A stretch of 64,000 nucleotides of DNA, from IMG/VR virus record IMGVR_UViG_3300046457_000143, positions 13,935 to 77,934 of that record. One strand, written 5' to 3'. Under the pieces are notes generated by a model that was given only the letters and a program-made list of their open reading frames with translations, did no database searches and was not told where the DNA came from. The translations under genes were made by a program, and so were the position numbers. Shown in pieces: positions 10,949-59,411 of the stretch (its first letter is position 1; each line of letters begins with the position of its first letter). This DNA comes from a virus.

Positions 10949-11007
10949 CTCGTATCTCGCGGTAAACTTCCGATACTTCAAACTTATCTCTAATTGCAGG
11001 GACCGCA

Positions 11008-29549: not shown

Positions 29550-29568
29550 CCTCAAACTTATATCTAAT
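29550..29568 (-). promoter_or_regulatory. Putative RNAP II (middle) promoter
   Basis: ATTAGATATAAGTTTGAGG; the same motif recurs in several intergenic regions. Confidence 0.65.
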
Positions 29569-29627
29569 GGATGGATGATAAAGGACTGATTCCGCAGTGT
29601 CCAGCGGTTAACGACACCCAAAGAAAG

Positions 29628-40002: not shown

Positions 40003-40021
40003 CCTCAAAGAAATATCTAAT
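40003..40021 (-). promoter_or_regulatory. Putative RNAP II (middle) promoter
   Basis: ATTAGATATTTCTTTGAGG directly after a terminator. Confidence 0.65.
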
Positions 40022-40029
40022 CAAAGGAC

Positions 40030-43275: not shown

Positions 43276-43731
43276 TCAGGCCGCTACTGCGTCCTGTGCA
43301 ACTTCGATCGGCATGTGGTAGATCGGGCAATTGCCGTCCTTTTCCTCGCCGTACCAGCACAACAGGTGTTGGCCCGCCTGGTTGCGCTTCCACATCTTGC
43401 CGGGGTACACACCGGAAGGGATCGACGTGTCGTAGCTCGATAGCTTCTTGAAGTCCTGCGGATCGAGCAGTGCCTTGCCGTCACGGATGAAAATCATCTG
43501 ACGGTCAGGCTGCGACCAGTGTTTGCCGAGCGGATCGGTCATCTCGGGGATGATGTCGACACCGTTCATCGGCTTGGCCGTACCGTCGATCGCTTCCTTG
43601 CGCTTGACATCGGCACGCACGTTGCGAATGTGTTGCAGCAGGCTTTCCTCGCTGAACGGATGGCCTTCGATGGTGTGGTGGTTGCCCAGCCACGTCTCAA
43701 TCTGGTCCAGCAGTTTGTCGTTCGTCTTCAC
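43276..43731 (-). CDS. Hypothetical protein
   Basis: GTG start after GGAG; MTDPLGKHWSQP...YDTSIPSGVYPGKMWK is a recurrent phage motif. Confidence 0.65.
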   Translation of the reverse strand: MKTNDKLLDQIETWLGNHHTIEGHPFSEESLLQHIRNVRADVKRKEAIDGTAKPMNGVDIIPEMTDPLGKHWSQPDRQMIFIRDGKALLDPQDFKKLSSYDTSIPSGVYPGKMWKRNQAGQHLLCWYGEEKDGNCPIYHMPIEVAQDAVAA

Positions 43732-43754
43732 TGATTTCTCCCGTTTACCAATAG

Positions 43755-43787
43755 AAAAGGGGCGAGAATCTTTCGACACTCACCCCT
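43755..43787 (-). terminator. Intrinsic terminator closing the candidate ncRNA
   Basis: GGGGTGAG...GAAA...CTCGCCCC-TTTT. Confidence 0.7.
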
Positions 43788-43945
43788 GATGAATCATCTT
43801 GGAGCACTCTGACAACCGGGCCGAATCCCATTTGTTCCGCGTTGACAGTGGACCACGCTCACGCAATGCCCTGCGTAAGACTCTTAGGTGGCCTTGCCTC
43901 CAGCGGCGTCAGCCAGAGTGCTCGAAGATGACAACCTTGCTTGCT
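43755..43945 (-). ncRNA. Candidate rod-like structured RNA (~190 nt)
   Basis: 18-bp terminal helix with one mismatch (43794-43811 with 43914-43931) enclosing nested G-U helices; own promoter motif and terminator. Confidence 0.6.
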
Positions 43946-43964
43946 CCTCAAAGTTATATCTAAT
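43946..43964 (-). promoter_or_regulatory. Putative RNAP II (middle) promoter
   Basis: ATTAGATATAACTTTGAGG directly after a terminator. Confidence 0.65.
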
Positions 43965-43975
43965 ATACGATCAAT

Positions 43976-43996
43976 AAAAAGCCCCTGTCAAGGGAC
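43976..43996 (-). terminator. Intrinsic terminator
   Basis: GTCCCT-TGAC-AGGGGC-TTTTT. Confidence 0.7.
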
Positions 43997-44049
43997 TTGC
44001 TGGCGGGGGAACCCCAAACAAACAAAGATGGGGTGCCCCCGCTGTGACC

Positions 44050-44253
44050 TCAGTCGTCCACTTCTGCTGTGGCCTTCGCCCGGTATCTGACGAATGCGTA
44101 CTTGAACTGCCGGTCCATGTTGTCCCGGCAGGGGCCGCACCACCAGCGGTACTCCGTATCGAGCAGGGACCAGGCGTTATCGCACCCGCAGCTGCTACAC
44201 CGAGGCAATAGCTGAGACGGGCTCGTCTCGCTGGTTTTGGTACTTTCCGTCAT
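44050..44253 (-). CDS. Small Zn-ribbon protein
   Basis: CSSC...CGPC pair; start uncertain. Confidence 0.5.
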   Translation of the reverse strand: MTESTKTSETSPSQLLPRCSSCGCDNAWSLLDTEYRWWCGPCRDNMDRQFKYAFVRYRAKATAEVDD

Positions 44254-44719
44254 ACCGTTGATGCTCCTTCGTCTGGTGAAACACGACCTGAGCGATCGCG
44301 GCGCCCTGCGGAATGACCAGGCCACCGCTGCCGTGGTAGACGAGTTCGAGTGTCAGGAATCCCTTCCACCCTGGCTCGATCACGGTATTGAATACGCTCA
44401 GGCCTTGCCGTGCCCAGGTGGACTTGTCGTGCACGATGCCGATCATGTCGGTCGGCATGTCGAACTCTTCGATGGCCGAGGCGATGATGAACTGACCGTG
44501 CGAGCGGCGGTAAGCGGTCACCTTCCCTTCCTGGTTCCGCTCGGTCGAGATCACGTACCGCTCGCTCCAGCTCTTCTGCACGAACTGGATCTCCTGCTTG
44601 ATACGGATGTCGTATCCCGCTTCACCCAGGCCACGGCTGACGCCATGCTCGTGCACCTTGTAGCCGATCATGTCCTTGATCGGCTGCCTGAGAACCAGTC
44701 CTACTCCGTTTATCACCAT
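44195..44719 (-). CDS. dcd: dCTP deaminase (N4 gp26-like)
   Basis: GYDIRI, HDKSTWARQG, IEPGWKGFLTLEL, YDGKYQNQ. Confidence 0.88.
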   Translation of the reverse strand: MVINGVGLVLRQPIKDMIGYKVHEHGVSRGLGEAGYDIRIKQEIQFVQKSWSERYVISTERNQEGKVTAYRRSHGQFIIASAIEEFDMPTDMIGIVHDKSTWARQGLSVFNTVIEPGWKGFLTLELVYHGSGGLVIPQGAAIAQVVFHQTKEHQRYDGKYQNQRDEPVSAIASV

Positions 44720-51947: not shown

Positions 51948-52034
51948 GGTGGACGGAGGTGGGAGTTGCACCCACATACCTGATGAGCATCCGAAGATGC
52001 CCCCCTGCCTCTGCTGTTTGAGCTATCCCCGTCC
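51948..52034 (-). ncRNA. tRNA-like RNA lacking a canonical anticodon loop
   Basis: 8-bp acceptor GGACGGGG/CTCCGTCC plus ACC, TAGCTCA D-arm, T-arm GTGGG-TGCAACT-CCCAC; middle arm is GGGCATC-TTCG-GATGCTC. Confidence 0.65.
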
Positions 52035-57811: not shown

Positions 57812-57995
57812 AGAATCCTTCTTTCCTTGGTAGCGGGAACGCACAAAAACGCGAGATCGAGGTTTTCGCGGCAGCGAAAACCTCGGGCGAGCTGTGGGCA
57901 GATAGTCTTTAGAGGCCATCTATCCACTTTGTGGAAATAAGTTGACTTTGGTCTTTAGGTCAGCGGACCCGGAGTTGAACTCTGTGCCTATCCTT

Positions 57996-58014
57996 ATTAG
58001 ATATAAGTTTGGGG
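57996..58014 (+). promoter_or_regulatory. RNAP II promoter motif in antisense orientation
   Basis: ATTAGATATAAGTTTGGGG, one mismatch to the 29550 copy. Confidence 0.55.
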
Positions 58015-59374: not shown

Positions 59375-59393
59375 CCTCAAAGATATGTCTAAT
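59375..59393 (-). promoter_or_regulatory. Putative RNAP II promoter
   Basis: ATTAGACATATCTTTGAGG. Confidence 0.6.
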
Positions 59394-59411
59394 GAATGAC
59401 GTAAAAAAGCC

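What the first reader, a model, noticed from the sequence alone, without database searches (positions are those of the whole stretch)
43755..43964. Standalone ~190-nt rod-like RNA with its own promoter and terminator
Seen: terminator, then promoter motif (43946-43964), then an ORF-poor segment, then a terminator. The segment has an 18-bp closing helix (TCATCTTCGAGCACTCTG/CAGAGTGCTCCAAGATGA), an asymmetric internal loop with a small hairpin, and nested helices CCGC/GCGG, GGCCAC/GTGGTC and CTTACGCA/TGCGTGAG. The G-U pairs work only on the - strand. Inference: size and shape recall 6S RNA, relevant because N4 late genes use host sigma70 RNAP; it could instead be a decoy RNA. A 16-codon TTG-start ORF after GAGGAG is an alternative reading.
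Basis: partly seen in the sequence, partly recalled or inferred. Interest (0 to 1): 0.72.

Follow-up and report, generated by a model that had tools for sequence, protein, structure and literature searches.

The report
New three-way-junction RNA of phages
The stretch encodes a real, conserved, folded non-coding RNA with its own promoter and terminator; it is not 6S RNA but belongs to an undescribed RNA family that other phages carry in tRNA clusters, inside the spacer of a split tmRNA gene, or in circularly permuted form.

Summary
On the minus strand a near-consensus sigma70-type promoter (TTGACA-18-TATATT) precedes a rod-like structured RNA of about 205 nt that ends in an intrinsic terminator.

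The 6S reading and the micro-ORF reading do not hold. Rfam has no match. A covariance model built here found homologues in three other N4-like phages, in an 18.6-kb phage fragment (between two tRNAs, next to a permuted tmRNA), and in cultured Stenotrophomonas phages. In QDWS359 it fills the intervening segment of the permuted tmRNA gene. In DLP_5 and DLP_3 it follows tRNA-Ser.

In seven sequences, 31 of 42 base pairs show compensatory changes. The conserved part is a three-way junction of about 50 nt: UG(A/C)CG, AAYAAR, and a small hairpin NGG-AUUCGN-CCN. A third phage group carries the same junction circularly permuted.

My best reading (inferred) is a stable trans-acting RNA of the tRNA/tmRNA world that binds a host factor. 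A self-cleaving or processing element is the main rival.

The scan's earlier notes cover only this same genome, not other DNA. The function is unknown, but cultured phages make it testable.

The parts
44003..44042 (-). Hairpin after the stop (44052-44050) of the upstream small Cys-rich ORF. Its loop holds the block TTTGTTTGG (44022-44014), which is invariant in all four N4-like relatives.
43962..43991 (-). Sigma70-type promoter: -35 TTGACA at 43991-43986, 18-nt spacer, -10 TATATT at 43967-43962. The -35 lies in the loop of a terminator-like hairpin (43998-43979).
   Evidence: 11 of 12 positions match. TTGACAG and the 17-18 nt spacing are conserved in four phages.
43946..43965 (-). One copy of the phage-wide motif ATTAGATATAAGTTTGAGG, a candidate phage-specific promoter or start-site motif. 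Its GAGG is the remnant ribosome-binding site of a small ORF that is lost here.
   Evidence: 6 copies against 0.1 expected
43933..43955 (-). Small 5' hairpin P0 (AACUUUG/CAAGGUU). It is a leader remnant and is not part of the conserved family core.
43912..43931 (-). P1, 5' strand of the long closing helix.
   Evidence: 16 of 22 P1 pairs covary
43907..43911 (-). J12, the conserved junction strand UGACG. The family consensus is UG(A/C)CG.
43837..43906 (-). P2, the long arm. Its base CCGC/GCGG is conserved and its tip is variable.
   Evidence: Variants in other samples cluster at the tip.
43830..43836 (-). J23, the conserved single strand AACAAAU. The family consensus is AAYAAR.
43818..43829 (-). 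P3, the small hairpin GGG-AUUCGG-CCC. The family consensus is NGG-AUUCGN-CCN.
43794..43817 (-). J31 (G, then GUU) followed by the 3' strand of P1.
43751..43786 (-). Intrinsic terminator: stem GGGGUGAG.../...CUCGCCCC followed by UUUUCUAUU.
   Evidence: Conserved with covariation in relatives.
43276..43731 (-). Downstream gene with a GTG start (phrog_24427, function unknown). It is not part of the RNA.

Best explanation
What is shown. Positions 43955-43751 (minus strand) form an independent transcription unit for a structured non-coding RNA of about 205 nt. The RNA belongs to an undescribed family defined by a three-way junction of about 50 nt:
- P1, the closing helix;
- J12, UG(A/C)CG;
- P2, the long arm;
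- J23, AAYAAR;
- P3, the hairpin NGG-AUUCGN-CCN, followed by RGU and the return strand of P1.

Helix sequences covary freely. P1 and P2 can be long, short, capped or opened (circular permutation). Only the junction is fixed.

What is inferred. The RNA is a stable, trans-acting molecule whose junction folds into a specific shape recognised by a host factor of the tRNA/tmRNA/RNA-processing world, acting as a decoy or sponge.
- In this N4-like phage, host RNA polymerase makes it from a strong sigma70-type promoter and the terminator ends it.
- In other phages it is cut out of tRNA or tmRNA precursors by tRNA-processing enzymes.
- The long P1 may serve only as a processing or stability stalk.

My confidence by step:
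- real conserved RNA on this strand, about 0.95;
- acts in trans rather than in cis, about 0.65;
- binds a protein as a decoy, about 0.4.
For: Fold and family
- The fold is far better than shuffles, and no Rfam family matches.
- Model R2 finds one copy per genome in four complete N4-like genomes. It also hits L088/L116 (E = 3e-11), QDWS359 (49.5 bits) and DLP_5 (43.1 bits). DLP_3 was found by blastn.

Covariation
- With 5 sequences: 93.7% of cells paired, 25 of 42 pairs with compensatory changes, 0 of 500 shuffles as good, and slid controls at about 36% paired.
- With 7 sequences: 31 of 42 pairs compensatory.

Contexts that point to a free RNA
- In L116 it lies between two tRNAs, upstream of a permuted tmRNA.
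- In QDWS359 it is exactly the intervening segment of a permuted tmRNA gene. That segment is absent from mature tmRNA (PMC11915505).
- In DLP_5 it follows tRNA-Ser.
- In phage Summit the same slot holds a tRNA-like insert instead.

Other support
- The window and L004 kept the promoter, RNA and terminator after losing the small ORF that L009 and L010 carry between promoter and RNA.
- The same J12, J23 and P3 occur in circularly permuted order in L125, L126 and L130, with covarying P2 and a capped P1.
- No protein gene is shared between the contexts, which points to a host partner.
Against: - There is no expression data. No RNA run is available, so the transcript ends are inferred.
- No partner has been identified.
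- The core is not a recognisable tRNA, tmRNA tRNA-like domain or T-loop. The sixth loop base varies, and DLP_3 and L130 change loop bases.
- Conserved junction strands together with natural circular permutation are also the signature of small self-cleaving ribozymes.
- In L009 and L010 the RNA lies in the 3' UTR of a small ORF, so a cis role is not excluded.
- The family is small: about 11 sequences from about 4 phage lineages.
Confidence: 0.55

Rival explanations
1. Self-cleaving ribozyme or RNA-processing module. The junction catalyses or directs a cut that separates neighbouring RNAs: the tmRNA pieces, tRNAs, or the small-ORF mRNA from downstream RNA.
For: - About 17 near-invariant junction nucleotides sit among freely covarying helices.
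- Natural circular permutation occurs, as in hammerhead and twister ribozymes (own knowledge).
- Every other context is a transcript that must be cut.
Against: - No known ribozyme model matches.
- The hammerhead-like string CUGACG is CUGCCG in most members, so the essential A6 is not kept.
- In the window and L004 there is nothing upstream in the transcript to process, yet the unit is retained.
- tRNA-processing enzymes already explain excision in the arrays (PMC11915505).
Confidence: 0.15
2. Hfq-dependent base-pairing sRNA or Hfq sponge. J23 (AAYAAR) would bind the distal face of Hfq, the terminator U-tail would bind the proximal face, and the P3 loop would act as a short seed.
For: - AAYAA is single-stranded and invariant and fits the A-R-N motif (own knowledge).
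- The N4-like versions end in a U-tailed terminator.
Against: - The versions in tRNA arrays and in the tmRNA segment have no U-tail.
- The only free conserved bases are about 6 + 6 nt, short for a seed.
- The invariance of J12 is unexplained by this reading.
Confidence: 0.1
3. Cis-acting leader for the downstream gene (riboswitch, attenuator or antitermination RNA). Folding of the RNA would decide whether the terminator at 43786-43751 is read through.
For: - The order promoter, structured RNA, terminator, ribosome-binding site and gene is conserved in four phages.
- The group-2 versions also precede a terminator-like hairpin and a gene.
Against: - P1 is an 18-22 bp helix that does not overlap the terminator, with 7-11 nt between them, and no alternative pairing is conserved.
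- The same RNA occurs with no expression platform, between tRNAs and inside a tmRNA gene.
- The downstream genes differ between contexts.
Confidence: 0.07
4. 6S-like RNA that mimics an open promoter and sequesters host sigma70 RNA polymerase.
For: Rod-like shape, a size of about 150-200 nt, and a side hairpin on the 3' side of the internal loop.
Against: - No 6S model matches.
- The 5' side of the loop has at most 5 unpaired bases, so there is no template bubble.
- The element tolerates a 4-bp capped P1 and circular permutation, which a 6S rod would not.
- It also occurs in siphoviruses that are unrelated to N4 and its use of host RNA polymerase.
Confidence: 0.03
5. DNA-level element (single-strand hairpin signal, origin, or MITE-like insert), or the 16-codon micro-ORF.
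For: - Sporadic, cassette-like distribution, with the core swapped inside a shared basal stem in DLP_5 versus Summit.
- An open 16-codon frame in the window.
Against: - 23 G.U pairs favour one strand, the same strand as the flanking tRNAs, promoter and terminator.
- The stem sequences are not conserved, unlike transposon inverted repeats.
- The ORF's start, stop and frame are not conserved, and there is no start codon in L002.
Confidence: 0.03

Closest known systems
Intervening sequence (IVS) of permuted two-piece tmRNA genes (Rfam RF04321; PMC11915505)
   Same: In phage QDWS359 the element is exactly this segment, and its P1 continues the tmRNA acceptor stem. Six other phage tmRNA genes also have a long-hairpin IVS. 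An IVS can carry other RNA genes, for example a tRNA (PMC11915505).
   Different: The window has no tmRNA or tRNA-like domain. The other phage IVSs lack the conserved junction. The element also exists entirely outside tmRNA genes.
Non-tRNA stable RNAs in phage tRNA clusters: T4 species 1/2 RNAs, and GOLLD/ROOL next to phage tRNAs (own knowledge)
   Same: These are phage-borne structured RNAs released along with tRNAs, with no known function and a sporadic distribution.
   Different: There is no sequence or structure similarity (no Rfam match). This RNA is much smaller than GOLLD or ROOL, and in N4-like phages it has its own promoter and terminator.
6S RNA
   Same: Rod-like shape, a size of about 150-200 nt, and an own transcription unit.
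   Different: It has no central bubble and no 6S model hit. The functional core is a three-way junction that tolerates permutation.
Small self-cleaving ribozymes (hammerhead, twister)
   Same: A three-way junction with invariant junction strands, natural circular permutations, and frequent occurrence in phage intergenic DNA.
   Different: The core sequences differ, the hammerhead A6 is not conserved, and no cleavage has been shown.
D-armless tRNAs and the tRNA-like domain of tmRNA
   Same: The helix order around the junction is the same: closing stem, short strand, long arm, 6-nt strand, small UUCG-containing hairpin, closing stem. The RNA also shares contexts with tRNAs.
   Different: It has no 7-bp acceptor stem plus CCA. 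The P3 loop has 6 nt and lacks a conserved T-loop A58. ARAGORN and the Rfam tRNA, tmRNA and YrlA models do not match.
Putative sRNAs of the N4-like phage LUZ7 (PMC9163698)
   Same: These are short non-coding transcripts from an intergenic region of an N4-like phage.
   Different: They come from a different location (between orf69 and orf70, expressed late). No homology was tested or seen, and blastn of the window RNA against cultured phages found nothing.

Membership tests
6S RNA | Match to the Rfam 6S covariance models | tested here: not met
   cmscan at E <= 10 over 43300-44500 and at gathering threshold over the whole window found no 6S hit.
6S RNA | A large central bubble, single-stranded on both sides (open-promoter mimic) | tested here: not met
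   The 5' side has at most 5 nt (UGACG), partly paired. The 3' side is J23 plus the P3 hairpin, so this is a three-way junction.
6S RNA | Binds the sigma70 holoenzyme and templates product RNA | not testable with these tools
   This needs biochemistry.
tmRNA / tRNA | Acceptor stem with CCA, T arm, and detection by ARAGORN or Rfam | tested here: not met
   ARAGORN finds 0 genes in the window and there are no Rfam hits.
Bacterial Y RNA (YrlA) | Match to Rfam RF02553 (tRNA-like module plus Ro-binding stem) | tested here: not met
   No hit on the element in the window, L116 or L125. In L146, YrlA matched only the true tRNAs.
Hammerhead ribozyme | Core CUGANGA ... GAAA ... UH around three stems | tested here: not met
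   J12 is CUGCCG in most members (A6 lost), J23 is AAYAAR, and no Rfam hammerhead hit appears.
Transcription-terminating riboswitch / attenuator | An aptamer helix that competes with the terminator, and a constant association with a regulated gene | tested here: not met
   P1 and the terminator are separate and both are stable. The element also occurs between tRNAs and inside a tmRNA gene.
   The window scores 141 bits. Core table; covariation.
Autonomous promoter-to-terminator unit (moron-like) | A sigma70-type promoter and an intrinsic terminator flanking the insert, conserved in relatives | tested here: met
   Actual transcription was not tested.

The most novel reading that the evidence does not exclude
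The junction is a new class of functional RNA fold shared by unrelated phages. It would be either a new self-cleaving or processing ribozyme, or a new tRNA/tmRNA-world mimic that hijacks or blocks a host factor (for example SmpB, RNase P, or a tRNA-targeting defence nuclease). Phages would move it as a cassette between tRNA arrays, tmRNA spacers and stand-alone units.
Probability: 0.3. Interest if true: 0.9.

Novelty: categorically new. Interest (0 to 1): 0.72.

Why it matters
Phage genomes still hide functional RNAs, and this one has unusually clean comparative support. It shows dense covariation, an invariant junction, natural circular permutation, and four different ways of being expressed.

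Its places in tRNA arrays and in a tmRNA spacer tie it to translation or RNA-processing biology, or to defence against phages.

It also occurs in cultured Stenotrophomonas phages (DLP_5, DLP_3, QDWS359). Function, partners and possible catalysis can therefore be tested directly, and the roughly 50-nt core is small enough for structural work.

Tried and rejected
Searches that did not extend the family
- blastn of the window RNA against cultured phages found no match.
- The first pattern scan returned four chance hits inside GC-rich coding sequences (L005-L008).
- The genome and metagenome pattern scans returned 21 loci, mostly coding or unconvincing. L101 and L104 lack P1 and were left out.
- Later viral scans also gave chance or coding hits (L118-L124 and L155-L161; L160 lies inside a 77-codon ORF).
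- 73 further dCTP-deaminase loci of N4-like phages have no copy within 4 kb.
- The L116 relative L145 has tRNA-Met instead.
- The tmRNA intervening segments of Xanthomonas and Bordetella phages have no R2 hit.
- Pseudomonas phage Y1 and Vibrio phage JSF39 were short chance matches.

Other negative or empty results
- No copy was found in the 151 Pseudomonadota genomes sampled. This is a weak test, with only 19 candidates scored per genome.
- No protein is shared between the contexts.
- No RNA holder is listed among the public runs. Laid contigs only showed further DNA variants.

Ideas considered and rejected
- A hammerhead-like alternative pairing (CAA/UUG extension of P3) is not conserved.
- The T-loop reading of P3 fails because the fifth and sixth loop bases vary.

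Full report
**Setting.** The window is part of a complete 77.9-kb virus genome with direct terminal repeats. It is N4-like, with a 3834-codon virion RNA polymerase ORF. The source appears to be a rhizosphere metagenome.

The finding lies on the minus strand in the early/middle region. It sits between a dCTP deaminase gene plus a small Cys-rich ORF (stop at 44052-44050) and a gene of unknown function that starts with GTG at 43731.

**Observation.**
- The promoter scan finds TTGACA-18-TATATT (43991-43962), matching 11 of 12 positions.
- The minus-strand RNA folds at -90.2 kcal/mol, z = -5.4. The plus strand reaches only -76.3 kcal/mol.
- The fold contains a small 5' hairpin, a long closing helix (P1), a junction with a small side hairpin (P3), a long arm (P2) and a separate terminator.
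Only this copy also has a TTGACA -35 element.

**Homologues and covariation.** Rfam has nothing here. Through the flanking genes I found a relative, L002/L004. It has the same architecture and nine compensatory pairs.

A covariance model then found L010 and L009. There is one copy per genome in four complete N4-like genomes. A core-pattern scan added L088.
- With five sequences, 93.7% of cells are paired, against about 36% when partners are slid by a few columns. Twenty-five of 42 pairs show compensatory change, and 0 of 500 shuffles match that.
- With seven sequences, 31 of 42 pairs are compensatory and there are 23 G.U cells.
- The sense strand scores 135-177 bits, against 23-25 bits antisense.

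The promoter is conserved too: TTTGTTTGG, TTGACAG, a 17-18 nt spacer and the TTAGAnnTA...GAGG block. L009 and L010 carry a roughly 45-codon hydrophobic ORF between the promoter and the RNA. The window and L004 have lost that ORF but kept the promoter, its ribosome-binding-site remnant, the RNA and the terminator.

**Where else it lives.** There are four contexts outside the N4-like phages.
- In L116, an 18.6-kb phage fragment, the RNA sits exactly between two tRNAs and upstream of a permuted tmRNA.
- In the cultured Stenotrophomonas phage QDWS359, the model hit (49.5 bits) is precisely the intervening segment of a permuted tmRNA gene. That gene matches RF04321 at 108.7 bits. The hit lies between the CCA end of the acceptor piece and the 5' end of the coding piece. 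This segment is removed from mature tmRNA by tRNA-processing enzymes and can host other RNA genes (PMC11915505).
- In DLP_5 and DLP_3 the RNA follows tRNA-Ser in a tRNA array.
- In their relative Summit, the same basal stem encloses a tRNA-like insert instead.

Other phage tmRNA intervening segments are long hairpins but lack this junction.

**Circular permutation.** Three phages of another group (L125, L126, L130) carry a structured RNA between genes similar to Pam3 gp33 and gp34. Its centre reads, in order: P2 3' strand, AAYAAG, the P3 hairpin, a short capped hairpin, UGCCG, P2 5' strand.

That is the same junction with the ends moved from P1 to P2. P2 covaries (CGUCUCGG/CCGAGACG, CUCGG/CUGAG, CUGG/CCAG). 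So does the capped P1 (GGCC/GGCC, GAACG/CGUUC, GGGC/GCCC). The fixed part of the family is therefore only the junction: UG(A/C)CG, AAYAAR, NGG-AUUCGN-CCN and RGU.

**Interpretation.**
- 6S is rejected. There is no model hit and no bubble, the RNA tolerates permutation, and it occurs in siphoviruses unrelated to N4.
- The micro-ORF is rejected.
- A riboswitch or attenuator is unlikely. P1 does not compete with the terminator, and the element occurs without any expression platform.
- tRNA, tmRNA, YrlA and hammerhead membership all fail.

Three facts favour a stable trans-acting RNA. The unit is retained without the small ORF. In other phages it is released from tRNA or tmRNA precursors. No phage protein neighbour is shared between contexts. 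Together they suggest that the folded junction is recognised by a host factor. That last step is inference.

The invariant junction strands and the natural permutation keep a self-cleaving or processing role alive as the main rival. The AAYAA strand plus U-tail keeps an Hfq role possible for the N4-like versions.

**Limits.**
- No expression data exist. No RNA holder is listed among public runs.
- The motif may be among unnamed candidates in a 2023 catalogue of phage structured RNAs (PMC10690425). I could not check this.

Noticed in passing
window 10981-10995, 29555-29569, 40008-40022, 43951-43965, 59380-59394 (all -) and 57995-58009 (+): Six copies of the motif ATTAGATATAAGTTTGAGG (0.1 expected by chance), most of them just upstream of genes and after terminators. 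This is a candidate phage-specific (middle?) promoter or start-site motif, and it is also conserved in relatives.
   Followed up: partly
L009:5014-5155 and L010:1720-1851: A hydrophobic small ORF of about 45 codons (MY...RAV.R...EYG*) lies between the conserved promoter and the RNA in two relatives. It is deleted in the window and in L004, leaving only its ribosome-binding site.
   Followed up: partly
window 51948-52034 (-): A tRNA-shaped RNA, flagged by another reader. It folds as a cloverleaf whose anticodon arm is a UUCG-capped hairpin. ARAGORN and Rfam do not call it. This phage therefore carries a second stand-alone structured RNA.
   Followed up: partly
L146:2881-3175, L147-L151, L116:5074-5376: Seven phage genomes (hosts where known: Stenotrophomonas, Xanthomonas, Bordetella) carry permuted two-piece tmRNA genes. 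In each, the intervening segment is a long hairpin that continues the acceptor stem and ends in (U)GAU before the 5' G. Most of these genes are unannotated. In QDWS359 an opposite-strand 'hypothetical protein' (gene 42) is annotated over the tmRNA.
   Followed up: partly
L116:5727-5803 (-): A tRNA with an abnormal anticodon loop. ARAGORN reports it as tRNA-??? with anticodon 'gcgg'. It sits directly upstream of the element.
   Followed up: no
L152:975-1105 and 1245-1440; L164:270-745: In DLP_5 and Summit, the stretch after tRNA-Ser holds further rod-like structured segments besides the element. In Summit a tRNA-like insert (T arm CAGGUUCGAAUCCUG) replaces the junction inside the same basal stem GCAUAG/CUAUGU.
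   Followed up: partly
L125:1270-1420, L126, L130, L134 (upstream of the gene similar to Pam3 gp34): A larger intergenic RNA of about 120 nt with a covarying outer stem and two flanking hairpins. Its central domain is the permuted junction in three genomes and something else in L134. Other relatives (L127-L129, L131-L133) have different or no inserts. A hairpin with the loop GGAGCCUCGG before the gene is conserved in most of the closer relatives (L125, L126, L128-L130, L132, L133) but not in L127, L131 or L134.
   Followed up: partly
L117:6306-6391 (-): A sub-threshold match to the alphaproteobacterial ar14 / CcsR1 sRNA families (41.5 bits; gathering score 58.8).
   Followed up: no
window 44014-44022 (-): The block TTTGTTTGG, about 22 nt upstream of the -35 element, is invariant in all four N4-like relatives. 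It may be an UP-like element or a protein-binding site.
   Followed up: no
window 43768-43993 (runs X2 and X4): Soil and gut metagenome contigs hold further variants of this RNA. Their differences cluster in the P2 tip (43854-43885). One variant has an insert of about 186 nt where relatives carry the small ORF.
   Followed up: partly
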